Virus record (IMG/VR): IMGVR_UViG_3300036766_001722 | Source: an uncultured virus (IMG/VR IMGVR_UViG_3300036766_001722) | Lineage: Duplodnaviria > Heunggongvirae > Uroviricota > Caudoviricetes | Length of the DNA: 64,000 nt | Direction: 5' to 3' (one strand) | Shown: one piece after another, positions 1 to 15,563 of the stretch | How positions within the stretch are numbered: position 1 is the first letter of the stretch | Layout of the letters: each line of letters begins with the position of its first letter | The notes under the pieces: model-generated | What the model saw: the letters and a program-made list of their open reading frames with translations, nothing else | Databases searched by the model: none | Told to the model about the DNA's origin: nothing | Position numbers and translations under genes: made by a program

Positions 1-689
1 ACCTTGATGCCGAGGCCTTCTGCGTCGATCGCATCTTGGAGACGCTGTCTCGCCTCGCCCTCGCTCAGCTCCCACAGTCGTTTCACCGAGGGCGCATTTC
101 TCCGTACGCGGCCGTTGACCGCGACAGAAGCGCTCGGGCGCTTGTGCTTCGCTCTCCGCTGCTTCTCGCGCTCGAGCTTCGCGGCATCGCCCTTCATCAA
201 GGTGTGCCGCCTCGCCAAGAGACTGGCGAGGTAGTCATCGGAGAGCGTGCGCACCGGCGGGATGTGATGTCCGACCTTGCGCAGTCGATGCTGGTGCCGC
301 AGCTTCTTCTTGTTCGCCCACACGACTTTCTCCGGGTTCACCGTGAACCAGAAGAGGCCGATCGCGATCACCGCGACGGCGCCCCAGCCGATCTTCAAGC
401 CGGTCGAGAGTCCCGAGTCCTGTACCGGCGGCGGGCTCAGCGACGCATCGGTCGTCGGTGGCGGCGTCTGGCCGAGCTGACCCGGCAGGCGAGCCGGGAA
501 GTTCGCACGCGGGAAGCCAGCTCCCGCGGTCTGGTAACGCATCGGGCGAGACCCGGTCGCCGTCGCGCCGAGGCCCGACATCGCGGCCTGCGTCACGTGC
601 GAGAGCACGGCACGGTGATGATCCTGCCGCGCACCCGCGTAGGGATCGGTCACGCGCGAAGACGTTCCGGGTTTGTTGTGATAGGTCAT
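1..689 (-). CDS. Putative virion membrane protein (MTY start, SGLGA/QLGQ, one TM, basic tail); runs off the left edge
   Basis: Not in the ORF track; translated by hand from ATG at 689: MTYHNKPG...AMSGLGAT...GQLGQTPPP...LKIGWGAVAVIAIGLFWFTV...VAVNGRVRRNAPS..., with no stop before position 1. Confidence 0.8.
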   Translation of the reverse strand, partial: MTYHNKPGTSSRVTDPYAGARQDHHRAVLSHVTQAAMSGLGATATGSRPMRYQTAGAGFPRANFPARLPGQLGQTPPPTTDASLSPPPVQDSGLSTGLKIGWGAVAVIAIGLFWFTVNPEKVVWANKKKLRHQHRLRKVGHHIPPVRTLSDDYLASLLARRHTLMKGDAAKLEREKQRRAKHKRPSASVAVNGRVRRNAPSVKRLWELSEGEARQRLQDAIDAEGLGIK

Positions 690-692
690 CGA

Positions 693-1460
693 TCACCGCC
701 TCGCCGAAGTGCTGCCCGCCACAGACTCATACTCGCGACCATTCCACACTTGGAGATTGCTCCGTGAAACAGGCCCATTCGTGCTGCGTTTCGCTTCCCG
801 CAGTGCGTCGTCGTCGTCGTTTGCACAGATTTCAATCCAGCCGTACGGACCACGATAGCGGTAGCTAACCCAGCCTGCGCTGCACGGGGCACGCAGGTCG
901 CGGATGAGAATGAAGCGATTCGTTCCGGATGCATCGAGACCGCGCGCCCTCGCAGCATCGTAGATGCGATCGATCTGCGCGGGCGTGTAACCCTCCGCGT
1001 CGATTGTTACCTCTCGTCTCCTAGCTTTCACTTGATCCAGAATTTGATCCAGCCTCGTCTCACGACGACGACGCGTGTTTTTCTCCGCCGTCGCCGCCTT
1101 CCCCATCATCCAGAAGATGGCGATCGTGCCCAGCACGATGGCGACGCCGCCGACCCTCGTGATCGTCTCGGGGCTCGCGCTCGGGATCGTGGTCTGCCCG
1201 ACGCCGCCGCCGTGTCCTGCGAACGTGACGCGACCATCGACGCCCACGGTCGCGACGAGCGGCCACGCTCCCGTCAGCCGATGCCCTCGACCATCATCCT
1301 GCGCCGTGATCTCGACGGGCGGCGGCTTCCGCGCCCGTCGCGCCGCTGCAATCGCCGGACGGATCCCTTTGACGAGCCACGGCGCGAAGAGCAGGATGCC
1401 CCTCTGGCTGAGGCTGAACGTGGCCCTGTTCAGGTCGATGTCGTGGCCGTTGACGATCAT
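693..1460 (-). CDS. Putative virion membrane protein (GGVGQ, TM, KNTRRRR, C-terminal modules)
   Basis: 255 aa; TM VGGVAIVLGTIAIFWMM; coupled to neighbours. Confidence 0.8.
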   Translation of the reverse strand: MIVNGHDIDLNRATFSLSQRGILLFAPWLVKGIRPAIAAARRARKPPPVEITAQDDGRGHRLTGAWPLVATVGVDGRVTFAGHGGGVGQTTIPSASPETITRVGGVAIVLGTIAIFWMMGKAATAEKNTRRRRETRLDQILDQVKARRREVTIDAEGYTPAQIDRIYDAARARGLDASGTNRFILIRDLRAPCSAGWVSYRYRGPYGWIEICANDDDDALREAKRSTNGPVSRSNLQVWNGREYESVAGSTSARR

Positions 1461-2941
1461 CAGAGCTGCCTCAGGGACTGCGGCACCACGGCGTAGACCC
1501 CGCCGCGTTCATCTTCCAGCACGGTGTGCTTCTGCCCGTCGATGGAGCGTGAGCCGATCTCCTTCGCGAGAACCGTGACCATCGACTCCACCCAGTCGTC
1601 GCTCGGGGCCGTACGCCACCGGCCTTTCGGTCCCGTGTACTCGAAGGCGTAGCCCTCGATCTCGTGCCATGGATCGCGCCCGTTCCACGCGAGCTGCCGA
1701 GCGCTGACGCTCGACCCGCGACCGTGACGCTCGTACTTCCACGTCTGGCGGTTGAACTTGGCGACGTAGCACCCAGCGATTCGCGCCGGGATGCCGTCGA
1801 TCGTGGTGCGCACGATCGCGCGATCGGCTTCGGCCGCGCTCGGCCCCGTCCAGACGATGGTGTCGCTACCGCAGAGGACCGCGAACGGCTTCGGGATGGC
1901 GCGCGCCTTCTCGCCCTGGTTGCGACGCAGTGGCTTCAGACCGCTGCCACCAGCGCGGCGAACCGAGACCTTCCTGTCGCTGTAGTAGGGATGGCCCTTG
2001 TCGAAGTGAACGAGATACGCGTCATCGCCGTACGACGACGTTTCGACGACCGTGCCGGGAAACCCCCATGCGTCTGAAACGCGGTCTCCCGCGCCGAACG
2101 TACCCGGGTTGCGACGCGTCCGCTTGCGACCGTTGGTCGCCATCCGCCGTGTGCTTCGACGCGACAGCCACCACCAGAGACCACCGGCCAGCACGAGGCC
2201 GCCGCCCACTGCCGCGGCGATCGGCACTGCCGTCGCCAGCGTACGGTCCGCCGAAAACACCGACTCGTTGCTCGGCGCGTCCGGCGGCAGGTCCCCCGGC
2301 AGCGTGTTCTTCGCCAGCTCCGGCGCGCTCGCCGGGATGCCCTCGCCCGTTGGGTAGACGTAGAGGTCAGACATCGGCCACACGCGGTGCACGCGGTAGC
2401 GCACCATCACGATCCGTGCGCCTGACGTGAGCCCCTCCGCCGCCGCCTTGAAGAGACGCGACGCGATGTTCGCGTAGTCGACCGCGTTGTACTGCTTGTC
2501 CGGCTTCCAGACGACGTAGATCTTTCCTGCGTCGCCACCGGCGGCCGTTCCCCACTTCGCAGTCGCGACGTTGGCCCCCGTGCTCTCTAGCACCTGCTTC
2601 ACCGCCGCGGGAACCCGCACTGCTGCCGCCGGATCGATGCCGTGCGGAACGAGTGCCGCATCGAGATACCAGTCGGTGCCCGACGGGCCGACCATGTACG
2701 CACGGACGGCATCCGTGTTCATGGTGGGAATCGCGTCACCGATGCCACGCTGAGCGACGATCGGATTCGCCGGAATGACCCACACCTTGTAACCGTCGAT
2801 CGTGTGAGGCACGCGTGGCGCCACCGCGCGCACGTTACTCGTCGTGCCGACGATGATGCGCCCACCTTCGGGGTGTACGGACACGATGCCGTGCTTGCCG
2901 AGCACCTTCCGCGACAGCTTGTCGATGGTCTTGTCGATCAC
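1460..2941 (-). CDS. Putative virion membrane protein with Asn-delimited C-terminal modules
   Basis: GTG start at 2941 overlaps the upstream TGA; RGIGD motif; TM AVPIAAAVGGGLVLAGGLWWWL; then MATNG, RRNPG, RRNQG and AWNG junctions. Confidence 0.8.
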   Translation of the reverse strand: MIDKTIDKLSRKVLGKHGIVSVHPEGGRIIVGTTSNVRAVAPRVPHTIDGYKVWVIPANPIVAQRGIGDAIPTMNTDAVRAYMVGPSGTDWYLDAALVPHGIDPAAAVRVPAAVKQVLESTGANVATAKWGTAAGGDAGKIYVVWKPDKQYNAVDYANIASRLFKAAAEGLTSGARIVMVRYRVHRVWPMSDLYVYPTGEGIPASAPELAKNTLPGDLPPDAPSNESVFSADRTLATAVPIAAAVGGGLVLAGGLWWWLSRRSTRRMATNGRKRTRRNPGTFGAGDRVSDAWGFPGTVVETSSYGDDAYLVHFDKGHPYYSDRKVSVRRAGGSGLKPLRRNQGEKARAIPKPFAVLCGSDTIVWTGPSAAEADRAIVRTTIDGIPARIAGCYVAKFNRQTWKYERHGRGSSVSARQLAWNGRDPWHEIEGYAFEYTGPKGRWRTAPSDDWVESMVTVLAKEIGSRSIDGQKHTVLEDERGGVYAVVPQSLRQL

Positions 2942-3825
2942 GGCGCAGCCTTTCCAGCTCCCGTGAGCTTTCGGATCGCGGCCTTGCCCCAAGGCGTGAA
3001 CTTGAAGAAGAGGAAGAGACCGGCCGCGCTCCCGCCGATGATCGCCGTGTAGCGGATCGCGTCGCCGATGCCGCCGCCGACGACGTTCGTGAAGTTCGAC
3101 GCCGCCGCGTCGAACGGACCGAGCGCGAGATCATGCTGAAGTTGCGCGCGCTGCGCCGCGCTGCACGGAGGCGTCGCCGTACGGCAAATCGCCTCCGCTT
3201 GCTGCGACGCGTACTCGAGCCGCTTGCTGCTGTCGAGCCAGTAGCTGATCGCGGTGATCGCTGCGGCGCCCAAGAGAACGGCCACGACCACCGCCGCGAT
3301 GATCACCACGGTCTCGACCTGCCCAAGGCCGTGCGTGCCCGACGGCATGCTCGTGAGCGGCGTCATGTTCCGGAGCACCTCGGAGGCCGAGTTGAACATC
3401 GTGCGGGCCGGAAGAACCAGCGCCGACTGCGCCGCCTGGTTCGCGTCGCGTTCCGCGGCGGTATTCACGGTGAGCGTCGCGAGCTGCTTCGCGCGAACGA
3501 CAGCATCGGCGACCTGTCCGATGGTGCCGCCAACGAACTGCTTCAGCTCGTCCCGCGAGAGCGTCGTGAGGTTGCCGCCCTGCGTCTGGATCTTCTGCCG
3601 GAGGAGATCGAAGGCCGGCTTCGAGAACGGGGACTGCCCTCCGAACGTCGCGATGGCGCGCTGCGTGAGCGACTTGAGATCCGTGGAGAGATCCGCGATC
3701 CCGTTCACCGGCCCGGCCGGCCCAGGCGTCGTCGCCTGGCCGAGACCGGCCACGGGCGCACCCGTGCACGCACAGCCAAGCGGCTGCGTCCGACGACGAT
3801 GAGCGAGTGCGGACGTGTAGCTCAC
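2938..3825 (-). CDS. Putative virion membrane protein (MSY start, two GLGQ motifs, two hydrophobic helices)
   Basis: GTGA overlap at 3822-3825 gives MSYTSALAH...; AGLGQ and HGLGQ; hydrophobic VVIIAAVVVAVLLGAAAI and IIGGSAAGLFLFF. Confidence 0.8.
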   Translation of the reverse strand: MSYTSALAHRRRTQPLGCACTGAPVAGLGQATTPGPAGPVNGIADLSTDLKSLTQRAIATFGGQSPFSKPAFDLLRQKIQTQGGNLTTLSRDELKQFVGGTIGQVADAVVRAKQLATLTVNTAAERDANQAAQSALVLPARTMFNSASEVLRNMTPLTSMPSGTHGLGQVETVVIIAAVVVAVLLGAAAITAISYWLDSSKRLEYASQQAEAICRTATPPCSAAQRAQLQHDLALGPFDAAASNFTNVVGGGIGDAIRYTAIIGGSAAGLFLFFKFTPWGKAAIRKLTGAGKAAP

Positions 3826-4793
3826 GCAGCACGTCTCCTGCTTCGACGCACGCGGCGGCGGTTCGAGCGCATCGGTGCGCCGAAGTACTCCTTCTCCTCG
3901 CCGGTCTGCGTGTCGATGACAGAGATGCCCTCGTCGCGCTTGTCGGCGAGGCGTTGCGCCTCGGTGGCCCATCCGGCGTCGAGCCTCTTGAGCACCTTGC
4001 CGCTCTCCGTGCGCAGCTCGTACCGTCCGCTGCCAGGGCCAAAGAAGTTGGCCTTGAGAGCATGCGTCGCGCTACGCAAGATGCGCTCTTCCTCAGCGTT
4101 GAGCCTATGTGCTTCACATGCCTGCGCGACGGCCTGCTCTCGCGAAACGCCAGTGCGATGAGTCGAGCTACGTTCGGCGTGGTGAACATCTGCGAGCGCA
4201 CGCTTGATCTTCGCGCCGTCTACTCCGTTGCGACGCAGGCGACGACGGTTCGCCTTCACCGCTGCCGGCGATGCCGCGGCGGCCGGCTTCTTCGAGAGGT
4301 AGACCGCTCCGCCGATGAGCGCGAGAACCCCAACGCCGATCGCCGCGTACATCTTGTAGTCCGGCGTGCCGGGCGGCGACGTCGAGGCCGCTGCCTGATC
4401 GGCTGCCGCCTGATCCAGCACGGCCTGATCGCCAGGCCCCACCAGCGTGGGGTCGACCGCCGCAGGCGGCGTCACCGAGGCCGGCGAAGTCGAGCCAGAC
4501 GGCGACGCCGTCGCCACCGCGGCGTCGATCGCATTCAGTGCTGCGGTCGTCACGGTGTAGTGGTACGTCGAGCCGACGAGCGCGGTCCTCACCGTCTCGC
4601 CCGTGTACCCGACGCTGCGCGCGGCTGCGCCGAGCGCGTTGATCGTCTGCGGGCCGAAGAAGCCGTCGACGCCCGACGCGGGAAGAAACCCGAGCGCGGA
4701 GAGCTTCGCCTGAAGCGTCCGAACGGCGGCGCTCCGCGTATTCGTCACGACGCTCGTCACCGCCGGAAGCGTGCCTAGTCCGTAGTAGCTCAC
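3822..4793 (-). CDS. Peptidoglycan-binding (PGBD-like) membrane protein with basic, Asn-delimited tail
   Basis: GTGA overlap gives MSYYGLGT; VRTLQAKLSALGFLPASGVDGFFGPQTINAL fits the PG_binding_1 pattern; TM YAAIGVGVLALIGGAVYL; KANRRR, RRNG, KANF, RSNRRR. Confidence 0.8.
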   Translation of the reverse strand: MSYYGLGTLPAVTSVVTNTRSAAVRTLQAKLSALGFLPASGVDGFFGPQTINALGAAARSVGYTGETVRTALVGSTYHYTVTTAALNAIDAAVATASPSGSTSPASVTPPAAVDPTLVGPGDQAVLDQAAADQAAASTSPPGTPDYKMYAAIGVGVLALIGGAVYLSKKPAAAASPAAVKANRRRLRRNGVDGAKIKRALADVHHAERSSTHRTGVSREQAVAQACEAHRLNAEEERILRSATHALKANFFGPGSGRYELRTESGKVLKRLDAGWATEAQRLADKRDEGISVIDTQTGEEKEYFGAPMRSNRRRVRRSRRRAA

Positions 4794-4933
4794 TTCTTCC
4801 TCCGATTCCGACGAGGGCCCTTGCCCTTCTTGAGGTAGTTCGCGATCAGCATCCCCGTTCCCACGAACGGGAAGGCGATCAGCAACATGTACCCAGCCAT
4901 GAGCGGCGCGGGCAGTACGTCGAGGACAATCAC
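4790..4933 (-). CDS. Small membrane protein (47 aa, TM plus RRNRRKK)
   Basis: GTGA overlaps at both ends; MIVLDVLPAPLMAGYMLLIAFPFVGTGMLIANYLKKGKGPRRNRRKK. Confidence 0.65.
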   Translation of the reverse strand: MIVLDVLPAPLMAGYMLLIAFPFVGTGMLIANYLKKGKGPRRNRRKK

Positions 4934-6282
4934 CGACCACCCCGCGTGTTGCGCAGGTACCCCGGGCGCACGCCCGCGCGGCGAGCTGCCTTGCGTGCGA
5001 TGCTGTACGCGATCGCCGAAGCCTGCTCCGGCGACTTCCCGGCGCGACGCTCGATGCCGATGATCTTGCCCATCGTCTTGCGCGAGTAGCCGTGGGGGAT
5101 GGGGTTCTTCTGCGTCCGTCCACTGTACTTGCGCTTGCCGCCGCTGCTTCCGGACCAGTACTCGTTGCCGCGGCCGTCGATCACCAAGGCCGTGGTGACG
5201 CCCTTGTCGAGCCACATCTCCGCAGCGCCGACCGCATCGTCGAGCGCGTCCTTCTCCGTGTGGAACTCGTCCGAGTCCTCGAACACGAGATCATCATCAC
5301 GGAAGCCGGACAGCGTCTCGATCCACGACAGACCGGCCGGGTGACGCATCACGTGGATGACCATGTCGTCGAAGTTGGTCGCGTTGCGCCGAACGCGGCG
5401 CCCGTTCCGCACCGTCAGCTTCTGGCGCGGCTTCTTCTTGAGCATGAAGTACGCACCAGCCGCGACGAGCACACCGCCGCCGATGAGGAACGGCGCAATC
5501 GTGCCCCAGTCCGGTCCCCCGCCAGGCGTCGTCACGATCGTGCCGTCGGGCAGCACAGTCTGCGTGCCGCCGCCGCTAGCGTTCGGCGCCGACTGCAGCG
5601 CCTCCCACGTACCGGAGGAGAACGCGATCGAGTGCTTGTCGGAGGACACCGTGTACGTCGTGACCTGGCCGCCCAGGACGACGTATCGTCCGATTGCCGA
5701 GAGTGCGAGCCTGAGCGCGTTCGCGGTCGCCGTGCCGAACGTGTTGTCCGCGCCGCCCGCGAGTGTGTAGCCCTTGCGGAGGAGTAGCGACTGGACGTCC
5801 GACGTCGGAACCGACTGCCCGACAGTGCCTCCCGAGGTCCGTCCCGCGGGCGCCGTCCCCGACGGCGCCGACGTGGGCGTCCCAGGAGGCGCCGTGGTCG
5901 GCGCGGCGCCCGACGGCGCCGACTCGCCGGGCAGGAGCAACTTCGCGTCCGAGGCAACGCTGCGCTCGGCTGCGCGGATCGCAGTCGTCAGCGCCGCGCG
6001 GCGCTGCGTGGCGGTCCAGCCCGTCGCCGGGAGAAACACCACGAAGAGGTGTCCCATGTCCGACCATCCCGAGCGCACGTAGCCCGCCGGGAACCCAGCC
6101 GCCTGCATCGCGTTCACGATGGTGTTCGGCACGTACTGGGCCTGGACCGGCGTGATGTTGTACGGCGTCAGCGACGTCATGTACTCGCCTGCCGTGGCGC
6201 CGGTGCCGGCCTGATCGATCGCGCCGAGGCCATGACGACCAAAGAGACGACGGATGGGATGGGTGGTCGAGTAGTAGGTCAT
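4930..6282 (-). CDS. Putative virion membrane protein (MTYY, HGLGA, PGBD-like domain, TM, Asn-delimited modules)
   Basis: 450 aa; DVQSLLLRKGYTLAGGADNTFGTATANALR is PGBD-like; TM IAPFLIGGGVLVAAGAYFML; VRNG, RRNA, QKNP, LRNT. Confidence 0.8.
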   Translation of the reverse strand: MTYYSTTHPIRRLFGRHGLGAIDQAGTGATAGEYMTSLTPYNITPVQAQYVPNTIVNAMQAAGFPAGYVRSGWSDMGHLFVVFLPATGWTATQRRAALTTAIRAAERSVASDAKLLLPGESAPSGAAPTTAPPGTPTSAPSGTAPAGRTSGGTVGQSVPTSDVQSLLLRKGYTLAGGADNTFGTATANALRLALSAIGRYVVLGGQVTTYTVSSDKHSIAFSSGTWEALQSAPNASGGGTQTVLPDGTIVTTPGGGPDWGTIAPFLIGGGVLVAAGAYFMLKKKPRQKLTVRNGRRVRRNATNFDDMVIHVMRHPAGLSWIETLSGFRDDDLVFEDSDEFHTEKDALDDAVGAAEMWLDKGVTTALVIDGRGNEYWSGSSGGKRKYSGRTQKNPIPHGYSRKTMGKIIGIERRAGKSPEQASAIAYSIARKAARRAGVRPGYLRNTRGGR

Positions 6283-6288
6283 CGCTCC

Positions 6289-7005: not shown

Positions 7006-7045
7006 CTCTCGTAGTCTCCTCTTGGCGCCCCGGTGTCAGCCGCAT

Positions 7046-7714: not shown

Positions 7715-8403
7715 GCAGCTCTCCGATAGCGGCGACGACGGTTCGCCGCCACCGCTGCTGCGGGTGCTGCGGCCGGAGCCGCTGCCTTCTTCTTCCCGCC
7801 GCTCAGCGCGAGGAAGCCGAGAAGTCCGACGACGCCGACTGCGCCGACCCCGATGACCCACATAGGGATGCCGCTCACGGTCGACGTGATGCCGGTCGTG
7901 ACCGGCGGTGTCGTGCTGCCGTCTGCCGTGGGAGTGACCGGCGGCGTTGCTCCCGGCGTAGCGTCCGGCGTCGTCGCGGCGGGCGGCAGCTTGATGTCGG
8001 ACGAGTCCACGAACGTGATCGGATTGATGAGCGAACCCTTGCCGCCGGGACGCAGGCCGTCTTCGTTGTAGTCCGAGGTGGCGTCGAAGAACGCGCCCTT
8101 GACCTTTCCGGCCGTCGAGGTCGTGTTCGGTACGATGACCTCGAGATGGATGAGACCGTCTGAACCCCACCCGTTGCCGGGAATGTTGACCGTCCATCCA
8201 GGCAGCCGTGCCCGAATCTTCTGCTTGAGGTAGGGAGGGATCTGCGCCGAGACGGTGCCCACCGTTCCCGACGGCTGCCACGTACCTTCGATCGTCACGT
8301 ACTGCTTGAGAACGCGCGGATCGTTGCGCGGCATCTGCCCCGCGCCCGGGTTCCAAACTGCGTCTGCCGGCCAGTCGCCGACTCCGTGGAGATGGTAGCT
8401 CAT
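7711..8403 (-). CDS. Putative virion membrane protein (MSYHLHGVGD, TM, ANRRRR)
   Basis: 230 aa; Pro/Thr linker; TM IPMWVIGVGAVGVVGLLGFLAL. Confidence 0.8.
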   Translation of the reverse strand: MSYHLHGVGDWPADAVWNPGAGQMPRNDPRVLKQYVTIEGTWQPSGTVGTVSAQIPPYLKQKIRARLPGWTVNIPGNGWGSDGLIHLEVIVPNTTSTAGKVKGAFFDATSDYNEDGLRPGGKGSLINPITFVDSSDIKLPPAATTPDATPGATPPVTPTADGSTTPPVTTGITSTVSGIPMWVIGVGAVGVVGLLGFLALSGGKKKAAAPAAAPAAAVAANRRRRYRRAA

Positions 8404-8421
8404 GGTGATCCGATCCTTTGG

Positions 8422-8988
8422 TCAGGTTGCCGGCCCGCGGAAGTGGCTGAGGAACGCTCGCACCTTCGCGAGCTTCTTCGTGCGCAGCAGCGTGTCCGAC
8501 GACCCCATCGCGAAGTAGTCGGCGTGCTTGGCGGAGATCTTGTACGTCGTGTGGTCGCCAGGGTTGTAGCGGTCGAGGTAGAGACCCTGATGGCGAGCAG
8601 TCTTCTGCAACGACAGGAACGAGTTTCCCGTGTTGCGACGCATGCGACGGCGACGGTTCATGTGCACCGGCGCTGCGCTGCTCGTGACCTTCGACACCGT
8701 GTAGAGATAGACAGCGAGCGAGAGCGCCGACAGGCCGAGGCCGACCTTCGCGAGCGCCTCCATGCGCGCCCCGCGCGCCTCCGCGTCGCTCACCACCGTG
8801 CCGCTTGGCGTCGTCGCCTGACCGAGATAACCGAGGTGACGGTTGCCCAGCACCGGAGGCTCGGTCTGGAAGATGACCGGAGACACGTAGCCGCGATGCC
8901 GCTGCGGCTGACCGTAGTCGGCGAACACCCACGGGTTTACGACGCCCCAGGGCTTGTAGCCGAGCCTTCTGTCGACCGTGTAGCTCAC
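8422..8988 (-). CDS. Putative virion membrane protein (MSYT, YLGQ, TM, MNRRRRMRRNT, C-terminal module)
   Basis: GTGA overlap at 8985-8988; TM VGLGLSALSLAVYLYTV. Confidence 0.75.
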   Translation of the reverse strand: MSYTVDRRLGYKPWGVVNPWVFADYGQPQRHRGYVSPVIFQTEPPVLGNRHLGYLGQATTPSGTVVSDAEARGARMEALAKVGLGLSALSLAVYLYTVSKVTSSAAPVHMNRRRRMRRNTGNSFLSLQKTARHQGLYLDRYNPGDHTTYKISAKHADYFAMGSSDTLLRTKKLAKVRAFLSHFRGPAT

Positions 8989-9266
8989 TTGGCCGATTCC
9001 TCTTGCCAGTTCTTCTTCATCTTCGCCTTGAGGCCCGGCAGCAGCTTGCCGAACACGAGATAGCCGAGGCCGAAACCGACCGCGACACCCACCGGCAGAA
9101 CGACCATCGGCGCGCGGTACCACTGCACCGGTGGCGGCTCCTGCCCGAGCGGCGGCACGCCGTAGAGCGGGTACGGCGCCATACCGGGCTGCGAACCGGC
9201 CACGCCCGATGCCTGAGCGGCTGCCTGCTCGAAGGCCTGGTCGGGCGCGTAATGAGACTGAGGCAT
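8985..9266 (-). CDS. Small putative virion membrane protein (PLGQ, TM, KKN)
   Basis: ATG 9266 preceded by AGGAAAGGA; TM VVLPVGVAVGFGLGYLVF. Confidence 0.75.
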   Translation of the reverse strand: MPQSHYAPDQAFEQAAAQASGVAGSQPGMAPYPLYGVPPLGQEPPPVQWYRAPMVVLPVGVAVGFGLGYLVFGKLLPGLKAKMKKNWQEESAK

Positions 9267-9285
9267 GACGATCCTTTCCTGACGA

Positions 9286-9642
9286 TCAGAAGTAGTTGCC
9301 GCCGACCATGCGCAGACGCTTCGCCGCCGAGCCCCATCCACCGAACGGCGGAAGCGTGCCGAGCCCCGACAACGTCTCGCGCATCGTCGTCACCGCATGC
9401 TGGCTCGGCGACGCCATACGCTGAGATGCGCTACGGGTCGCCACCATCTTCGGGCGCGCCGCGTCTTGCGCCATCATCTGCGCCACCGTCATCGAAGCCG
9501 CCTGGCTCGGCGGCCGAATCGCGGACGCGACACGAAGCCGCGCGAACCGATTCGCGGGATGCGCGTGACGCACGAGATGATGGAGCGCCGCCGCCGCGAC
9601 ATGCGGTGCTGCGCCGACTCCGTTATGTGCGTGATAGCTCAT
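9286..9642 (-). CDS. Small basic protein (MSYH, NGVGA, SGLGT, ends VGGNYF)
   Basis: TGATG overlap at 9640-9644; shares the family motifs but has no TM. Confidence 0.7.
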   Translation of the reverse strand: MSYHAHNGVGAAPHVAAAALHHLVRHAHPANRFARLRVASAIRPPSQAASMTVAQMMAQDAARPKMVATRSASQRMASPSQHAVTTMRETLSGLGTLPPFGGWGSAAKRLRMVGGNYF

Positions 9643-10127
9643 CAGAATTCGCTGACACAGCGGCCGTAATGCCGGTTGAAATGACTGCCGGGCGGGCACC
9701 CGTGGGAGTAATACTCCCGCGTGGCTGCGCTGTAGGGTTTTACGCGGGGGTCTACGCCGGGGTCTACCGCCGCGCGTCGCGTCCCCACCGGGAAGTAGTT
9801 ACCGCCGATGCCTGCGGCGCCGCCAGGCATCGGTGTCGGGCCACTGGGCGGCGACACCGTTACGCGAGCCGGAGCGGCCCGGCCACTGGCGACCAGTCCG
9901 TCGATCGCCCCGAGCACGTCGGCGACCTGTTCGACGCTCATGCCGGACATGAACAGCAGGTCGAGCCGACCCCCTCTGAGGACTCGATTCGCCGTCATCA
10001 TCGCGCCGGACGCGGCGATGCGTCCCGCAGGAGGCAGTACTCCAGCGCCTCCGCGTGCAGCCCAGTCACGCATCTGCATGTAGCGCCTGTAGGCCAGGTA
10101 CTTGATCGGGGTGTCCATCGACGGCAT
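9642..10127 (-). CDS. Hypothetical protein (GIGGNYF motif, C-terminal CPPG..C)
   Basis: TAATG overlap at 10125-10129 gives MPSMDTPIKYLAY... Confidence 0.7.
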   Translation of the reverse strand: MPSMDTPIKYLAYRRYMQMRDWAARGGAGVLPPAGRIAASGAMMTANRVLRGGRLDLLFMSGMSVEQVADVLGAIDGLVASGRAAPARVTVSPPSGPTPMPGGAAGIGGNYFPVGTRRAAVDPGVDPRVKPYSAATREYYSHGCPPGSHFNRHYGRCVSEF

Positions 10128-11533
10128 TACAGACCCACCTTCCTCGCGAACTTCTTCGCGTTCTTCTTGAGTGACTTCCGATTGCGCCAGAGCAGGAACG
10201 CTCCGAGGCCGACACCGCCAGCGATGAGCATGTTCTTGCCGGTGAACACTCCGTTTGCCGGGATCATGGCAGCGGGGACCGGCGCCGACGCGGTATCCTG
10301 CGCGACCTGTCCCATGCCCTGGACCGCGGTCGGCGATGCCTTGAGCGCGCTGATCTCCGTCGTGAGCGCGGCCTGGCTTGCCGCCACCGGCGCCACGATC
10401 TTCGTCGCCAGCTCCGTCACCGGCGTCTGCGGGGCCGCCGCCGCGAGGTTGCTGATCCGCCGGAGGCCTCCCTTGCCGCCGCGTCTCTGACGCGAGACGA
10501 GGTCGTCCATCGTCGCGTGCATCACGCAGTGAGCCATGACGTGGGCGATCGCCTTCTCGGGCGGATAGCCCATCGCGATCAGCTTCTGCGCCACGCGGCT
10601 GCACTTCTTCGACAAGCCCGGTCCGAGCGAGTCCATCGCGCGAGCGAGGAACTGGTCGCGCCACTGACGCTGCATCCCCTTGCTCTCCTTCACAAGAGCG
10701 TTGGCGATGTTCCACCCGAACGACTCGATCTTCGAGTTGCTCGGGGGCGGACGATACGCGTCGACGCGTGCCGAGAGCGCGACGCCGCCCGCGGACGGCT
10801 GCGTGACGCGCCATTCGTCCGCGGTCGTGTCCCACATCTCCGACTGCTGCACGCCCAGCTCGGCCTCGTCGGCGATGTACGCCGGGAGCGCGAACTGATG
10901 AGCGAAGATGCCGTCCTGGTTGCGCCAGGTGACGCCTTCCTCCTCGTCGTAGATGCCGTTGCCGATGACGTTCTGCGACGAGTCGTCGTACTCGTAGCTG
11001 TCACGGTCATAGACCGTGAGAGGATCGACGCCACGGTTCGACGTCTGCTGGTTCATCTGGGGGTTGCGCATCGGCCACGGCACCGGGGCCGTCACCTCCG
11101 GCTCGTAGAGCATCGTGTCCGTGGGCACCGACTTCACGGTGGTGGACTGGTCGCTGCCGAGGTTGACGTCGGTCTGCTGCTGAGAGAACGAACGATAGCC
11201 CTGGCCGCTGCCGGGCCCCCACGGGCTAGAACCGAAGTCGGTCTGCTCCATCCCTTCGCCGTCCTGCACAGCGAGGAGATCGAGCTGCGACATGTCGATG
11301 TCGGTAGCGGGGCCGGCTCCGTCGCCGGGACGCGACGGGGTGTCCTCCTGGATCTCGTCGTCAAGGATCGAAGAGCGACCCGGACCCTGGTAGTCCTCCA
11401 CGTCGAGGTTCGCGTTGCCACGCATCGTCGGGATGGCCATCGAGCCATCGCCGTCGAACAGCGTCGCCAGATCGGCGTCGTCCATCGAGGTATCCGTGTC
11501 CATGTCATCTCTTGCCATGTTGCGCCCCATCAC
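10127..11533 (-). CDS. Putative virion protein: acidic N-terminus, shared helical domain, GMGQ, C-terminal TM, KKN
   Basis: 468 aa; TM MLIAGGVGLGAFLLW followed by RNRKSLKKNAKK. Confidence 0.8.
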   Translation of the reverse strand: MMGRNMARDDMDTDTSMDDADLATLFDGDGSMAIPTMRGNANLDVEDYQGPGRSSILDDEIQEDTPSRPGDGAGPATDIDMSQLDLLAVQDGEGMEQTDFGSSPWGPGSGQGYRSFSQQQTDVNLGSDQSTTVKSVPTDTMLYEPEVTAPVPWPMRNPQMNQQTSNRGVDPLTVYDRDSYEYDDSSQNVIGNGIYDEEEGVTWRNQDGIFAHQFALPAYIADEAELGVQQSEMWDTTADEWRVTQPSAGGVALSARVDAYRPPPSNSKIESFGWNIANALVKESKGMQRQWRDQFLARAMDSLGPGLSKKCSRVAQKLIAMGYPPEKAIAHVMAHCVMHATMDDLVSRQRRGGKGGLRRISNLAAAAPQTPVTELATKIVAPVAASQAALTTEISALKASPTAVQGMGQVAQDTASAPVPAAMIPANGVFTGKNMLIAGGVGLGAFLLWRNRKSLKKNAKKFARKVGL

Positions 11534-12198
11534 GCGGTCGCCTTCGGCCGCTTCTTGATCGCCAAGTATCCCACGGCCAGGATCCCCGCGAGCACCGCAA
11601 ACGACACGCCGTACGTCACGAGCGGGCTCGCCGGTGGTGCCGAGGTTGCCGTCGTGTCAGGAGTCGGCGTCGTAGGCGGCGGCGTGAGCTGAGAACACTG
11701 TGCCACGCCCTGAGCAGCCGCGAATCCCGTCGTCGTCGCGCTGTGCGCGTCGGAGCCCTGCGTCTGGCCGACGAGGTCAGACACCGCGCTCGAGAGCGGC
11801 GTCGAGCAGATGAGCCCCTGGAACGACCTCGCTACGGCGTCCGCCGTGGCATCGCCGAGTCCCACCCCACCGAGGCCGCTGTTCGGCGACCACGCGATCG
11901 GACGCCCGTACTGCGCTGCGCGACCGATCTTCTGGATCTTGCGGATCGACGCATCGGCCAGCGACCGAGCGAGAGCTTCGTGGACCGCCGCGCTCGTCGT
12001 CATACCGCGTGCTCGAAGCGTGTCGGAGACCTTGGCCACCGTCGTGGGCAGCGCAGGATCGACCGCGCGCAAAGCTGAGCTGAGACGCTGCATCCGAACC
12101 GCTTCCGGCTGCCGACGCGTGGCCGCGAGGATCTCCGTCGCGGCGGCACGGTGGTGCGCCAGAATCGGGTCGCTATGCCTGCTGGTGGAACGGTTCAT
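11530..12198 (-). CDS. Putative virion membrane protein (shared helical domain, SGLGGVGLGD, C-terminal TM)
   Basis: 222 aa; TM LVTYGVSFAVLAGILAVGYLAI then KKRPK. Confidence 0.8.
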   Translation of the reverse strand: MNRSTSRHSDPILAHHRAAATEILAATRRQPEAVRMQRLSSALRAVDPALPTTVAKVSDTLRARGMTTSAAVHEALARSLADASIRKIQKIGRAAQYGRPIAWSPNSGLGGVGLGDATADAVARSFQGLICSTPLSSAVSDLVGQTQGSDAHSATTTGFAAAQGVAQCSQLTPPPTTPTPDTTATSAPPASPLVTYGVSFAVLAGILAVGYLAIKKRPKATA

Positions 12199-12201
12199 GT
12201 C

Positions 12202-12954
12202 TCAGATCTTCTTCACGACGACCACTCCGACGATCCCGAGCAGCAGCACGCCGCCGCCGATCATTGCGAGCTTGATCATCGTGCCCTGCTTGGCCGTGCC
12301 GGCGGCGATCGCGGCCTGCTGCGTCTGCGCGTTCGCCTGGGCAGCGGCAAGGTTCGCCGCGGTCTGCTGGTTCTGCGCGTCGATCTGCGCTTGCGTGTTC
12401 GCAGCCGCGTGCGCGCCGCAGAACGTGTTCGCTGCCGTGTTGATCGACCCTGTGGCGTCCGTCGTGGTCGTCTTCGTGGCCGCTCCGACGAGGCTGGTGA
12501 GCGCGCTGAGGCCGGCCATGACGCCGCACGAGATGTCCGTGCCGGTGTAGTCCGGCGCCGCCGCCTGACCGAGAGCAGAACCACCGACGGCGGCGACCAT
12601 CGCACGGATCTGCTCGATCGCCTTGTCGGCCAGCACGTTCGCGACCACGAGGCGCAGCGCGTTGAACGTGACCTGTGTGCCGCGAGCGCCGCTGGCGGCT
12701 AGCAGGCGGTACTGGTCGTTGAAGCGCTGCGCGAGACCGGACTGGATCTTGTTCGCCTCCGCACGGATGATGCGGAGCTGCCCCGCGGCCGATGTCGCAG
12801 TGCTCGCCTTGCGGATGATCTGCGACGCCATGAGGGACGCCGACGAGACCACGATGTCGCGACTCGCGAGCGAGCCGACCGAGACCGCCGTCGCGCCGAG
12901 ACCACCGACCGAAGTCTTCCGAGCGCCGAAGCGCGCCTTGGCCTTGTAGCTCAT
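12202..12954 (-). CDS. Putative virion membrane protein (MSYK, GGLGA, ALGQ, C-terminal TM)
   Basis: 250 aa; TM LAMIGGGVLLLGIVGVVVV then KK. Confidence 0.8.
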   Translation of the reverse strand: MSYKAKARFGARKTSVGGLGATAVSVGSLASRDIVVSSASLMASQIIRKASTATSAAGQLRIIRAEANKIQSGLAQRFNDQYRLLAASGARGTQVTFNALRLVVANVLADKAIEQIRAMVAAVGGSALGQAAAPDYTGTDISCGVMAGLSALTSLVGAATKTTTTDATGSINTAANTFCGAHAAANTQAQIDAQNQQTAANLAAAQANAQTQQAAIAAGTAKQGTMIKLAMIGGGVLLLGIVGVVVVKKI

Positions 12955-13307
12955 CGACGGCTCCTGCTGTAGGAACGCTTCCCGCGTCTCTTGTTCGACT
13001 TGATCGGCATCGGCTTGCCGAACCCCTGAGCGAATGCCACGGCAGGCGTTACGATTGGAAAGAGCCCGCCGAGCAGTCCCCAGCCGATGGCGGCGCCGAC
13101 CGACCCGTTGTGGCGACGGTACCCGTGAAACGCACTGAGTCCGACACTGGCCATGTCCAGCACGTAGAAAAGGATACGGAGTGGACCCGTCGACGGCCCC
13201 TGAACGACCTGAATCGTCGTCGGAGTCTGGACGGGCGCGGGCGGCGTCGCCTGGCCAAGGTGCTCGAAGCCGAGACCAGCGGTGCTGTAGTAGGGAGCGG
13301 CCATCAT
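12951..13307 (-). CDS. Small membrane protein (AGLGF, HLGQ, two hydrophobic helices, KSNKRR)
   Basis: ATGA overlap at 13304-13307 gives MMAAPYYSTAGLG... Confidence 0.75.
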   Translation of the reverse strand: MMAAPYYSTAGLGFEHLGQATPPAPVQTPTTIQVVQGPSTGPLRILFYVLDMASVGLSAFHGYRRHNGSVGAAIGWGLLGGLFPIVTPAVAFAQGFGKPMPIKSNKRRGKRSYSRSRR

Positions 13308-13897
13308 TCCACCTTGAAGATCTTGTAGACCTTCACGCGAGCGAGCATCGACGCCGTACGACGACCGGCGACAGGATCGAGAACCCACCACACCTTCGAC
13401 CGAGGATCTTGCGCGCGAGCGAACACATGCGTGTACACCGGCGGCTGCCCCCACATCGGCGTCTCGAACCCCACCGTGATGAAGTCGACCGGCGCGCCGA
13501 TCGTGAGACAGCTCGCGCCAATGGCAGTCGAGTACCCATCGCAGTCAAGAAGCAGGGAGCCACGAGCCGCGTCATCGAGCATCCGGTCGGTCGTCCCGAG
13601 CATCTCGACGTGCACCGGGTCACGCGTGTAGCGGCCTGCGTTACCCCACCACTTACCGATCGCGACGACCTCCGACGTGTAGTCCTTGGGACGCACGTTG
13701 TTGATGATCTGCTCGGCGTGACGACGCACGCGGATCGAGCGCTCGCCGTCGAGCGCCGTCCCGACCATCTGGATCGGGTTCCGCTGACGACGCGCGAGCT
13801 GAATCATCACCGCCACGGTGTGATCGACGCCGCGATACGGCTCGACGGAGCCGGTCGCCTGCGTGTAGCTCGGGGCGTAGCGCTGCTGGCGGAGCAT
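13304..13897 (-). CDS. Transglutaminase-like cysteine protease, candidate virion maturation protease
   Basis: Cys-His-Asp order typical of the transglutaminase-like fold: LDCDGYS, YTHVFA, WVLDPV, plus RYTRDP upstream. Start at 13897 (GGAGG upstream) or 13942. Confidence 0.75.
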   Translation of the reverse strand: MLRQQRYAPSYTQATGSVEPYRGVDHTVAVMIQLARRQRNPIQMVGTALDGERSIRVRRHAEQIINNVRPKDYTSEVVAIGKWWGNAGRYTRDPVHVEMLGTTDRMLDDAARGSLLLDCDGYSTAIGASCLTIGAPVDFITVGFETPMWGQPPVYTHVFARAQDPRSKVWWVLDPVAGRRTASMLARVKVYKIFKVE

Positions 13898-15239: not shown

Positions 15240-15549
15240 GCCGCTGGCGACGGACGAGCGCTCGGCCGTGCCGTGCGTAGATGCGCGGGGTGCCCCGACG
15301 CTCCTGTGCCGGACGGGCATCCGCAAACAGCTCGTACCGTACTCCCACGACGCGCTGCGCGGCCGTGCTGACGATCATGACGACGCGCTCGCCCTCTTTC
15401 ACGCCCAGCGCCAAGAGAGGGGCTGACGGCACCGCGTACGCGGTGCCATCGTGGAAGCGCACAGACGCCCGCGACCCTCGATATCCGAGCACGGTCACCG
15501 GGCGTCTCTGCTCGACGACTGGCGCAGGCGTGGCGACATAGCTACCCAC
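15232..15549 (-). CDS. Hypothetical protein
   Basis: 105 aa, collinear with the operon. Confidence 0.55.
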   Translation of the reverse strand: MGSYVATPAPVVEQRRPVTVLGYRGSRASVRFHDGTAYAVPSAPLLALGVKEGERVVMIVSTAAQRVVGVRYELFADARPAQERRGTPRIYARHGRALVRRQRPV

Positions 15550-15563
15550 GGCCGCAGCGTACC

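What the first reader, a model, noticed from the sequence alone, without database searches (positions are those of the whole stretch)
1..13897. About 19 proteins share a (G)-L/V/I/M-G-Q/D/A/T motif, beside a transglutaminase-like protease: candidate undescribed maturation or sorting system
Seen: nearly every gene from 1 to 13307, plus distant genes 61192 and 62876, carries the motif (SGLGA, QLGQ, GVGQ, GIGD, GLGQ twice, GLGT, GLGA, PLGQ twice, GVGS, GVGD, YLGQ, GVGA, GMGQ, GLGD twice, ALGQ, HLGQ, SLGQ). It sits at the end of a leader or domain, usually just before a Pro/Thr/Ala linker and a TM helix. The sequences are otherwise largely unrelated. The gene directly upstream of the run is a Cys-His-Asp transglutaminase-like protein. 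Known: adenovirus protease, poxvirus I7 and ASFV pS273R are cysteine proteases that mature many virion precursors at short Gly-containing sites. Inference: this bacterial virus uses an analogous phiG|x processing code, possibly read by the transglutaminase-fold enzyme.
Basis: partly seen in the sequence, partly recalled or inferred. Interest (0 to 1): 0.88.

Follow-up and report, generated by a model that had tools for sequence, protein, structure and literature searches.

The report
Shared peptide tags on virus membrane proteins
About twenty otherwise unrelated small membrane proteins of an uncultured large virus-like element carry the same short Gly-Leu-Gly tag and an arginine-rich tail, next to a conserved cysteine enzyme that may cut the tag, which points to an undescribed way of addressing and maturing particle proteins.

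Summary
As worded, [LVIM]-G-[QDAT] is close to chance in total count. The core G-[LMIV]-G-[Q/A/D/T], or [LVIM]-G-Q, is about five times enriched in the 18 block proteins and absent or depleted in the other 68 window proteins.

In 56 related loci the core is conserved inside orthologous families, with the two Gly and the hydrophobic residue at 82-100% and the following residue variable.

It belongs to a three-part grammar:
- an N-terminal M-S/T-Y start followed by G-phi-G, or a copy just before the linker and membrane helix;
- one membrane helix;
- a tail of the form hydrophobic-x-x-Asn-Arg(n).

The upstream gene (13304-13897) has a transglutaminase-like fold with an invariant Cys-His-Asp. It heads the block in every locus where the DNA downstream was readable.

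Cleavage is plausible, given the conservation pattern and the LapG precedent, but nothing here shows it.

Relatives are 150-300 kb records of 90-100% estimated completeness. I found no terminase, portal or HK97 capsid gene in them, and two encode a giant protamine-like protein. The particle may therefore be non-tailed.

This scan noted the same grammar earlier on another genome.

The parts
13304..13897 (-). Transglutaminase-fold Cys-His-Asp enzyme, candidate tag-processing protease. My ORF call ran to 13942; homologs start at the Met at 13897.
   Evidence: Alignment A1 (35 sequences) has invariant D133-C134-D135, H172 and D189. 15 of 35 members match Pfam Transglut_core at E<=1, best 1.9e-5; the window protein itself has 0 matches. 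AF2 pLDDT is 81. Foldseek hits: TglA 1e-4, putative Cys proteases 3kd4/3isr, LapG, TgpA, TGases.
12951..13307 (-). Family 1: N-terminal YY..GLG..HLGQ, two hydrophobic helices, SNKRRGKR tail. Overlaps the enzyme gene by 4 nt.
   Evidence: Alignment A3 has invariant YY, conserved LGQ and N-RRR. It is the first downstream gene in 41 of 56 loci.
12202..12954 (-). Family 0 paralog: MSY start, GGLGA (aa 18), SALGQ (aa 127), C-terminal membrane helix.
11530..12198 (-). Family 0 paralog: GVGLGD (aa 113), Pro/Thr linker, C-terminal membrane helix.
   Evidence: Family column: G 82%, phi 96%, G 96%.
10127..11533 (-). Family 2, the most conserved tagged protein: acidic N-terminus, helical domain aa 268-404, GMGQ (aa 406-409, nt 10307-10318), linker, membrane helix, NRK..KK tail.
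   Evidence: Motif column: G 97%, phi 97%, G 100%.
9642..10127 (-). 161-aa protein in the block with no core motif and no membrane helix.
9286..9492 (-). 68-aa protein with SGLGT (aa 43).
8985..9266 (-). Family 3: PLYGVPPLGQ (aa 39), then a membrane helix.
8422..8988 (-). Family 4: MSY start, GYLGQATTP (aa 54), membrane helix, MNRRRRMRRN.
7711..8403 (-). MSYHLHGVGD N-terminal tag, Pro/Thr linker, membrane helix, VAANRRRRYRR tail.
7046..7714 (-). MSY..GGVGS tag, PG_binding_1 domain, Pro-rich linker, membrane helix, basic tail.
   Evidence: Pfam PG_binding_1 4.4e-5.
6289..7005 (-). Family 5: MTF start, IPLGQNTAPP (aa 58), membrane helix, conserved C-terminal domain.
4930..6282 (-). MTYY..HGLGA tag (aa 18), PG-binding-like region, membrane helix, VRNGRRVRRN, C-terminal domain (phrog_2423).
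4790..4933 (-). 47-aa hydrophobic protein ending NRRKK; no Gly motif.
3822..4793 (-). MSYYGLGT tag, PG_binding_1 domain, linker, membrane helix, ANRRRLRRN and a C-terminal SNRRRVRRSRRR.
   Evidence: Pfam PG_binding_1 2.8e-6.
2938..3753 (-). MAGLGQATTP N-terminal tag, a second HGLGQ at aa 142, hydrophobic helices.
1460..2941 (-). 493-aa protein: GIGD (aa 66, possibly chance), membrane helix at aa 234, TNGRKRTRRN, C-terminal domain.
693..1460 (-). GGVGQTT (aa 86) directly before a membrane helix, then NTRRRR.
3..689 (-). MTY start, SGLGA (aa 39), QLGQTPPP (aa 71), membrane helix. The gene runs off the window end.
61192..61521 (+). Dispersed member: GGLGD (aa 74), then a membrane helix. Its ortholog lies inside the block in relative G002.
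62876..63244 (-). Dispersed member: MSYHRPTRRSLGQ tag, Pro/Thr-rich region, C-terminal membrane helix.
15232..19775 (-). Head of the same operon: 164-aa, acidic 180-aa, acidic/coiled-coil 824-aa, 223-aa and 76-aa proteins of no known family. The 164-, 180-, 824- and 76-aa genes are syntenic with L001/L002.
   Evidence: The ESM Atlas gives only unnamed viral clusters at 0.88.
14039..15202 (+). TnpB/IS605-type transposase gene inserted between the operon head and the enzyme gene. Not part of the system.
   Evidence: Pfam OrfB_IS605 5.5e-25, phrog_506 2.6e-94. No counterpart among the genes called in L001 and L002.

Best explanation
The minus-strand run 3-13897, continued upstream to 19775, is the particle (late) module of an uncultured 150-300 kb virus-like element. 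Its many small proteins are built from shared address modules:
- a G-[L/M/I/V]-G site, placed either a few residues after an M-S/T-Y start or at the junction between a folded domain and a Pro/Thr/Ala linker;
- one membrane helix;
- a tail of the form hydrophobic-x-x-Asn-Arg(n).

Shown here: the modules exist, exceed chance, are conserved across more than 50 related loci, and sit on unrelated domains. The operon also carries a conserved transglutaminase-fold Cys-His-Asp enzyme directly upstream.

Inferred:
- The Arg tails hold these membrane proteins against the packaged DNA. Two relatives also encode a 670-924 aa protamine-like protein in the same run of genes.
- The G-phi-G site is recognised, and most likely cut after the second Gly, by the transglutaminase-fold enzyme acting as a maturation protease. 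That would remove short leaders or release domains from their anchors.

This would work like the T4 capsid-targeting sequence with gp21, or adenovirus protease on its DNA-bound core precursors, but with an unrelated enzyme.
For: - Enrichment in the window: G[LVIM]G[QDAT] 15 against 3.0; LGQ 8 against 1.3, with 0 in the other 68 proteins.
- Unbiased k-mers, 369 downstream proteins against 456 others: GLG 174 vs 50, LGQ 112 vs 26, NRRR 74 vs 9, MSY 88 vs 19.
- One representative per cluster (110): motif in 49 (shuffles 11.9, max 22); motif in the first 40 aa in 33 (4.9); N..RR..RR in 52 (1.7).
- Conservation within families: family 2 G 97% / phi 97% / G 100% with +1 Q only 18 of 32; family 0 82/96/96% with +1 Q 29 of 71.
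- The motif in family 2 sits right after the confident helical domain, at the start of a low-confidence linker.
- Enzyme: invariant C-H-D and a TGase-like fold.
- Precedent: LapG, a TGase-like protease, cuts at a short small-residue site (PMC10990149, passages).
- Synteny: the order enzyme, family 1, 0, 0, 2, 3, 4 recurs. Family 1 is the first downstream gene in 41 of 56 loci.
- Protamine-like protein with Asn-bounded Arg repeats and repeated AAAGMG[T/S/A] in G001 and G002.
- No terminase, portal or capsid gene found in relatives.
Against: - No direct evidence of cleavage, of enzyme-substrate contact or of virion location.
- The enzyme has no signal peptide or membrane helix. By the positive-inside rule many N-terminal tags, and the PG-binding domains, should lie on the far side of the membrane from the Arg tails, where a cytoplasmic enzyme could not reach them.
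- Family 1 has two helices, so tag and tail lie on the same side there. Topology is therefore not uniform.
- Ser codon AGC in 76 of the 87 Ser codons at MSY starts shows that the Ser/Thr at position 2 is partly a by-product of ATGA start/stop overlaps.
- The residues before Arg runs (N, S, T, G) are classical helix N-caps, so the 'Asn fence' may be structural only.
- It is not proven that the element makes particles.
Confidence: 0.4

Rival explanations
1. The G-phi-G tag is an uncleaved docking motif that recruits diverse proteins to a scaffold, shell or DNA condensate. The transglutaminase-fold enzyme has another job, for example cutting a host or cell-wall target or one specific precursor.
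For: - The tag lies in exposed or disordered contexts.
- It is repeated several times in the protamine-like protein.
- There is conservation on both sides of the Gly pair: A/Y upstream and T/A/P downstream in the logo.
- In T4, the targeting determinants of the CTS are separable from the processing determinants (PMC9026906, passages).
Against: - The strict G-x-G with a hydrophobic middle residue and a free next residue is more typical of a protease subsite pattern.
- The enzyme gene heads the tagged block in every locus read downstream.
Confidence: 0.22
2. The element is not a virus making particles, or the block is not structural. The tagged proteins are then inserted in the host membrane, with PG-binding domains outside and Arg tails inside, to remodel the envelope, exclude rivals or form a transfer apparatus of a plasmid-like element.
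For: - No capsid, portal, terminase or packaging-ATPase gene was found. The only Walker A matches lie in MoxR-like ATPases, helicases and a few proteins I did not characterise.
- Plasmid/ICE-type genes are present: PcfJ, DUF932, ART-PolyVal, ParB, integrase.
- PG_binding_1 domains occur on two tagged proteins.
Against: - IMG/VR holds the relatives as viral records, two with direct terminal repeats.
- ESM Atlas neighbours of the 824-aa protein are 96-100% viral.
- A protamine-like protein in the same run of genes suggests DNA condensation.
- No conjugation ATPase or relaxase family was hit.
Confidence: 0.15
3. The enzyme is a true transglutaminase or a sortase-like transpeptidase. It links the tag, through the Gln after G-phi-G or through the Gly carboxyl, to a lysine, to peptidoglycan or to a lipid amine.
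For: - The fold is shared with cross-linking transglutaminases.
- Gln is the commonest residue after the Gly pair: 26 of 63 in the logo.
- The juxta-membrane copies, with helix and basic tail, recall tripartite sorting signals (recalled knowledge).
Against: - Gln is the least conserved position: 41% in family 0 and 56% in family 2, replaced by D, N, A or E. A Gln acyl donor should be invariant.
- 0 of 26 proteins match any NCBIfam family above its cut-off, and none of the weak matches is a C-terminal sorting-domain model.
- Half of the tags are N-terminal and far from the helix.
Confidence: 0.08
4. The shared pieces are only relics of common descent or of Gly/Ala/Arg-rich composition in a fast-evolving paralog family, and have no signal function.
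For: - The genes are tandem and co-directional.
- The block is richer in Gly, at 10.6% against 7.1%.
- PG-binding paralogs exist.
- Part of the MSY start is explained by gene overlap.
Against: - Composition-preserving shuffles never reach the observed counts.
- The motif columns stay at 82-100% while the flanks diverge to 27-50% identity.
- Tagged genes also occur dispersed elsewhere in the genomes.
- The exact MSYxGLGQ coding pattern occurs 3 times in 2.9 million viral contigs, all three in this lineage.
Confidence: 0.08

Closest known systems
Phage T4 capsid-targeting sequence (CTS) of internal proteins IPI-III and Alt, removed by prohead protease gp21. Giant phages such as SPN3US have propeptides cut by gp245.
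   Same: A short shared N-terminal leader on otherwise divergent proteins directs them into the particle and is then cut at a short motif by a protease encoded in the head module (PMC9026906 and PMC7411985, passages). Many of those proteins are basic.
   Different: - Those proteases are serine enzymes of the herpesvirus-assemblin type, cutting after Glu. Here the candidate is a Cys-His-Asp transglutaminase-fold enzyme and the site is G-phi-G.
- The T4 proteins are soluble. These carry a membrane helix and an Asn-Arg tail.
- No HK97-type capsid, portal or terminase was found here.
Adenovirus protease (adenain), poxvirus I7 and ASFV pS273R acting on many virion/core precursors at Gly-containing sites (recalled knowledge; no call).
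   Same: One cysteine protease matures many different particle proteins at a short Gly-rich consensus. Several adenovirus substrates are Arg-rich DNA-bound core proteins.
   Different: - Those enzymes have the clan CE (Ulp1-like) fold with His-Asp/Glu-Cys order. This one has Cys-His-Asp order and a transglutaminase-like fold.
- Their sites are (M/I/L)xGG-x, AG-x or GG-x. This one is G-phi-G-x.
- Their hosts are eukaryotic.
LapG / BTLCP bacterial transglutaminase-like cysteine proteinases.
   Same: The fold family is shared (Foldseek 4u65 3e-3, 4fgq 1.4e-2). LapG cuts its substrate at a short small-residue site, 108AA109 of LapA (PMC10990149, passages).
   Different: - LapG is periplasmic, calcium-dependent and cuts one adhesin.
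- This enzyme has no signal peptide and would act on about 20 proteins.
- The motif is Gly-phi-Gly, not Ala-Ala.
- The window protein gave no Pfam match at all at E<=1, so none to a LapG/BTLCP model.
Tripartite C-terminal sorting signals (LPXTG/sortase, PEP-CTERM/exosortase, MYXO-CTERM and others; recalled knowledge).
   Same: The order is short motif, then membrane helix, then Arg/Lys cluster, on many unrelated proteins of one genome, with one dedicated Cys enzyme.
   Different: - The motif is 14-130 residues from the helix, or at the N-terminus.
- Several proteins continue far beyond the basic cluster.
- 0 of 26 proteins match a known sorting-domain model.
- No sortase or exosortase family was hit.

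Membership tests
Transglutaminase-like superfamily (Pfam Transglut_core, papain-like Cys-His-Asp fold) | Catalytic Cys, His, Asp in that order, conserved | tested here: met
   D133-C134-D135, H172 and D189 are invariant in 35 sequences.
Transglutaminase-like superfamily (Pfam Transglut_core, papain-like Cys-His-Asp fold) | Match to the family profile | tested here: inconclusive
   The window protein has 0 Pfam families at E<=1. 15 of 35 relatives match PF01841 at E<=1, best 1.9e-5. 1 of 120 listed homologs has it precomputed.
Transglutaminase-like superfamily (Pfam Transglut_core, papain-like Cys-His-Asp fold) | Fold | tested here: met
   AF2 model pLDDT 81, pTM 0.79. The Foldseek top 50 is dominated by TGase-like proteins: TglA 1e-4, 3kd4, 3isr, LapG, TgpA, TG2/TG3, PNGase/Rad4, NATs.
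Transglutaminase-like superfamily (Pfam Transglut_core, papain-like Cys-His-Asp fold) | Hydrolase (protease) versus transferase activity | not testable with these tools
   Only indirect evidence: the Gln after the Gly pair is poorly conserved.
LapG/BTLCP | Secreted (periplasmic) enzyme with a signal peptide | tested here: not met
   No hydrophobic N-terminal segment in the sequence or in the 35 aligned relatives.
T4-type CTS plus prohead protease | Short shared N-terminal leader on divergent proteins | tested here: met
   M[ST][YF] start in 40 of 110 cluster representatives against 22 of 456 other proteins. Motif within the first 40 aa in 33 of 110 against 4.9 in shuffles.
T4-type CTS plus prohead protease | Serine prohead protease (S77/S78/ClpP type) and HK97-type head genes | tested here: not met
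   No such PHROG or Pfam hit in the window, in G002 or in G001. Terminase_6N and Phage_capsid: 0 of 5 relatives.
T4-type CTS plus prohead protease | Leader removed during maturation | not testable with these tools
   Needs proteomics.
Adenain / I7 / pS273R (clan CE) | His-Asp/Glu-Cys order and Ulp1-like fold | tested here: not met
   The order is Cys-His-Asp. No clan CE protease is among the 44 Foldseek rows shown.
C-terminal tripartite sorting signals | Signature motif directly before a C-terminal helix and basic cluster; match to a known model | tested here: not met
   Distance from the last motif to the last helix has a median of 54 aa (10-90%: 14-132). No sorting-domain model is among the few weak NCBIfam matches of the 26 proteins at E<=0.1.

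The most novel reading that the evidence does not exclude
This is the morphogenetic module of an undescribed lineage of large (150-300 kb) non-tailed, membrane-containing viruses of bacteria. In this reading they have no terminase, portal or HK97 capsid. Their DNA is condensed by arginine modules carried on 20-35 different membrane proteins and on a giant protamine-like protein. A transglutaminase-fold cysteine protease matures these proteins at G-phi-G sites. That would be a core-maturation logic like that of adenoviruses and poxviruses, evolved independently in a prokaryotic virus.
Probability: 0.2. Interest if true: 0.95.

Novelty: new variant of a known kind. Interest (0 to 1): 0.78.

Why it matters
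If the tags are address and processing signals, they give a readable code for which proteins enter the particle of a widespread but uncharacterised lineage. At least 139 homologs of the enzyme were found in metagenomes, on contigs of up to 298 kb.

It would add a new enzyme class, the transglutaminase fold, to viral maturation proteases. The tag could also serve as a handle for loading foreign proteins, as the T4 CTS does.

No tailed-phage hallmark gene turned up in five records estimated 90-100% complete, and two relatives encode a protamine-like protein. Together these raise the possibility of a new particle architecture among prokaryotic viruses. Proteomics and microscopy on an enrichment or an isolate could test this directly.

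Tried and rejected
- No whole genome is held for the window.
- megablast of 1-20000, and tblastn of the 824-aa and 996-aa proteins, against 50,697 GenBank phages: no match.
- The search for related loci with the single 468-aa protein found nothing.
- A profile of the enzyme family against PDB sequences hit only designed Kelch-like repeat proteins through a short repeated stretch. I treat these as spurious.
- The ESM Atlas for the 824-aa protein gave only unnamed viral clusters at 0.88, and no structure is held.
- AF2 of the 468-aa family-2 protein (pLDDT 57): only a helical domain is confident. VIA-align gave Z <= 5.2 to death-domain-like bundles, which is uninformative. It did not reveal a capsid fold.
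- Complex prediction of the enzyme (16-212) with the first 45 residues of the neighbouring family-1 protein returned no answer (score 0.02, controls not run). This is neither support nor evidence against.
- Genome contigs: 7 MAG contigs labelled as 7 different phyla. I read these as mis-binned viral contigs, so they give no host.
- A Walker A scan found no candidate packaging ATPase.
- Literature searches for a transglutaminase-like phage maturation protease, and for large phages without recognisable capsid genes, returned nothing relevant. A search for S. pyogenes TglA found no paper on it.
- I considered type IV prepilin leaders, double-glycine bacteriocin leaders and Tat/Sec signals from memory. 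I rejected them because no hydrophobic segment follows the tag and no matching peptidase family was hit.

Full report
**Layout.** The window is 64 kb at 62-69% GC, and no whole genome is held for it. I called genes with a codon model trained on the window.

- Positions 3-13942 hold 19 co-directional minus-strand genes, many with 4-nt start/stop overlaps.
- A TnpB/IS605 gene on the other strand (14039-15202) separates them from five more minus-strand genes (15232-19775).
- The rest of the window encodes replication and DNA-modification functions: a helicase with an intein, an AEP primase, an exonuclease, two N6/N4 methyltransferases, NUDIX, and a MoxR-type ATPase with a VWA partner.
- No capsid, portal, terminase or tail family was hit in the window.

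**The observation.** SLGQ of the 62876 gene appears once the gene starts at 63244 (MSYHRPTRRSLGQ).

Shuffling each protein's residues gave these results:

| Pattern | Observed in 18 block proteins | Expected | Other 68 proteins |
|---|---|---|---|
| G[LVIM]G[QDAT] | 15 | 3.0 (0 of 2000 shuffles reach it) | 2 against 4.3 expected |
| LGQ | 8 | 1.3 | 0 |

- Sixteen of the 18 block proteins and both distant genes have a core motif outside a hydrophobic window.
- Apart from the PG-binding paralogs 3822/7046/4930 and a weak 1460/4930 match, the 18 proteins are unrelated by blastp at E < 0.01.

- Nine of 18 proteins start M-S/T-Y/F.
- Nine have an Asn followed by an Arg run shortly after the membrane helix, for example ANRRRLRRN, NGRKRTRRN and MNRRRRMRRN. 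N(RRR|GR[RKV]) occurs 7 times against 0.2 expected.

**Relatives.** The enzyme gene has close relatives on two IMG/VR contigs of 171 and 160 kb. Gene order is kept: operon head, enzyme, tagged block. Neither relative has a TnpB gene at this position.

- A protein search found 139 homologs of the enzyme. None has a functional name, and they lie on contigs of up to 298 kb.
- With an alignment of 35 of them (A1) I collected 8 viral and 80 metagenome loci.
- I entered 60 of these by hand. I left out duplicates of the same contig and loci where the match touches the end. Of the 60, 56 had at least 600 bases downstream.
- These gave 408 co-directional downstream proteins, 369 of them unique.

An unbiased count of 3- and 4-mers, in these 369 proteins against 456 proteins from the rest of the window and of two full relatives, put the following on top:

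| k-mer | Downstream proteins (369) | Other proteins (456) |
|---|---|---|
| GLG | 174 | 50 |
| LGQ | 112 | 26 |
| NRR | 102 | 22 |
| MSY | 88 | 19 |
| NRRR | 74 | 9 |
| GLGA | 51 | 2 |
| GLGQ | 56 | 8 |

Orthologs are not independent, so I clustered the 387 unique proteins into 110 clusters and took one representative of each:
- G[LVIM]G[QDAT] occurs in 49 (shuffles 11.9, maximum 22).
- A motif within the first 40 residues occurs in 33 (4.9 in shuffles).
- N..RR..RR occurs in 52 (1.7 in shuffles).
- M[ST][YF] starts occur in 40, against 22 of 456 elsewhere.
- The logo reads (M-S-Y)-x-A-G-[L33 M11 I10 V9]-G-[Q26 A20 D8 T5 E3 S1]-[T/A]-[A/T]-P-P.

The C-terminal module reads helix-[RK]2-3-x3-8-[V/L/M]-x-[A/P]-N-Arg(n). 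In block representatives 46 of 111 Arg runs are preceded by N or NG, against 14 of 133 elsewhere, and the residue three before the Asn is V/L/M/I in 40 of 46.

**Conservation within families.**
- In family 0 (71 members, including 12202 and 11530) the motif column is G 82%, phi 96%, G 96%. The next residue is Q in only 29 of 71, with D 14, N 8 and A 7.
- In family 2 (32 members, including 10127) it is G 97%, phi 97%, G 100%, with Q in 18 of 32.
- Family 1 (12951) has an invariant YY, a conserved G-L and LGQ, two hydrophobic helices and N-RRR.
- Flanking sequence identity among orthologs is 27-50%.
- The exact coding pattern for MSYxGLGQ occurs three times in the 2.9 million viral contigs, all three in these two relatives.

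**The enzyme.**
- A1 shows invariant D133-C134-D135, H172 and D189.
- Fifteen of 35 members match Pfam Transglut_core at E <= 1 (best 1.9e-5). The window's own protein matches nothing.
- The AF2 model has pLDDT 81 and pTM 0.79.
- Foldseek's best matches are transglutaminase-like proteins: TglA 1e-4, putative cysteine proteases 3kd4 and 3isr, LapG, TgpA, TG2/TG3, PNGase/Rad4 and arylamine N-acetyltransferases.
- In 41 of 56 loci the next gene is family 1, and the order 1-0-0-2-3-4 recurs.

**What kind of element.**
- G002 (160 kb, direct terminal repeats, CheckV 100%). Of 204 called proteins, 145 of at least 110 aa were scanned with PHROGs, 112 of those with Pfam, and three boundary proteins separately. 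None hit a capsid, portal, terminase or tail family. The 56 shorter proteins were not scanned.
- G001 (171 kb). 74 of 85 proteins of at least 190 aa that lie within one fetched piece were scanned, again with no such hit. I left out 11 block proteins, and 4 boundary-spanning proteins of that size were not scanned.
- Terminase_6N and Phage_capsid gave 0 of 5 relatives, while the control genomes rang.
- A Walker A scan found no candidate packaging ATPase; the identifiable matches were MoxR-like ATPases and helicases.
- G001 and G002 carry, downstream in the same co-directional run of genes, a 924- and a 670-aa protein. Its first two thirds are Arg/Ser-rich, with repeated Asn-bounded Arg modules. 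Its C-terminal part repeats AAAGMG[T/S/A]. The window ends before that position.
- The head of the operon encodes acidic and coiled-coil proteins of no known family.
- The 468-aa family-2 protein folds confidently only in a helical domain (aa 268-404). GMGQ comes directly after that domain, followed by a low-confidence linker and the membrane helix. No informative fold match was found.
- The host is unknown. Seven MAG contigs labelled as seven phyla look mis-binned.
- Shine-Dalgarno-like sequences precede several genes. PG_binding_1, Amidase_2 and M23 domains point to a bacterium with peptidoglycan.

**Mechanism.**

Shown here:
- a conserved three-part grammar on unrelated proteins;
- a conserved transglutaminase-fold Cys-His-Asp enzyme at the head of the block.

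Inferred:
- The Arg tails bind the element's DNA.
- G-phi-G is a recognition site of that enzyme and is probably cut after the second Gly.

For cleavage:
- Conservation is strict at G-phi-G and free at the next residue. This fits a protease with a hydrophobic S2 pocket (recalled knowledge of papain-like enzymes).
- It argues against Gln as a transglutaminase acyl donor.
- LapG is a precedent: a transglutaminase-like protease that cuts a short small-residue site (PMC10990149, passages).
- The T4 CTS/gp21 and SPN3US systems show the same logic with other enzymes (PMC9026906 and PMC7411985, passages).

Against cleavage:
- There is no direct evidence.
- There is a topology problem. The enzyme has no export signal, yet many N-terminal tags should lie across the membrane from the Arg tails. 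In the two-helix family 1, tag and tail lie on the same side.
- The Ser/Thr at position 2 is partly a by-product of ATGA overlaps: AGC makes up 76 of the 87 Ser codons at MSY starts.
- N, S, T and G before Arg runs are ordinary helix N-caps (the N-cap preference is recalled).

**Earlier notes of this scan.** Two notes on another genome (e1-5780463, e1-5780472) describe the same MSY...GLG...helix...hydrophobic-x-x-Asn-Arg grammar headed by a Cys protease.
- I re-derived the pieces independently on this window and on 56 loci.
It holds for 46 of 111 Arg runs, not 'always'.
- The second note's claim that tag and tail lie on opposite sides does not hold for family 1.

**Verdict.** The transglutaminase-fold neighbour is real. 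Processing is the best single reading (0.4) but is unproven. I found no description of this grammar in two literature searches.

Noticed in passing
window 14039-15202 (+): A TnpB/IS605-type gene (OrfB_IS605 plus the Cas12f1-like TNB domain) sits between the operon head and the enzyme gene. Neither syntenic relative, L001 or L002, has a gene there, so it is a recent insertion.
   Followed up: partly
window 36085-39258 (+): The 1057-aa SF2 helicase carries Hint and LAGLIDADG matches in its N-terminal third (aa 93-352), before the helicase motifs that start at aa 437. This looks like an intein. The orthologs in G001 and G002 (1045 and 1041 aa) show helicase matches from about residue 63-71.
   Followed up: no
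G002 (L005-L012), G001 (L013-L021), and G003-G005 behind L022, L024, L025: Records of 150-300 kb, estimated 90-100% complete, show no terminase, portal, HK97 capsid or tail family by PHROGs/Pfam. They do carry integrase, ParB, Mu Gam, three PcfJ-like proteins, DUF932 and ART-PolyVal. The lineage may be a non-tailed virus or another kind of mobile element.
   Followed up: partly
G002 60759-62771 (L008:759-2771) and G001 158770-161544: A 670/924-aa protamine-like protein with repeated modules N-G-RRRSRR...RRRV-[T/S]-R-N. Its C-terminal domain has GEYV[D/S]QP[L/M] and AAAGMG[T/S/A] repeats and a conserved end, ...PEGKG[Y/F]AGG[L/V]FAR[N/H]LFAGMF.
   Followed up: partly
window 16247-18721 (-): An 824-aa protein with an acidic N-terminus, a long Glu/Arg-rich coiled-coil-like middle and Gly/Gln-rich stretches. 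It is syntenic in relatives at 31-38% identity and has no known family. Possibly a scaffold.
   Followed up: partly
window 29762-32232 (+): A MoxR/AAA_5-like ATPase followed by a DUF2201 (putative metallopeptidase plus VWA-like) protein. The pair is conserved in G001 and G002.
   Followed up: no
window 49810-52464 (+): An 884-aa protein with an N-terminal GHKL (HATPase_c_3) domain, with an ortholog of 896 aa in G002. Function unknown.
   Followed up: no
block gene starts, window and 56 loci: Among M-S/T-Y starts the Ser codon is AGC in 76 of the 87 Ser codons. This is explained by (A/G)TGA start/stop overlaps that force an A after the start codon. The Tyr at position 3 is not explained this way.
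   Followed up: yes
L108-L114: Relatives of the enzyme gene lie on short contigs of MAGs labelled Clostridia, Acidobacteriota, Nannocystaceae, Planctomycetota, Patescibacteria, Lentisphaeraceae and Saccharibacteria. This is most simply binning error, and these labels should not be read as hosts.
   Followed up: partly
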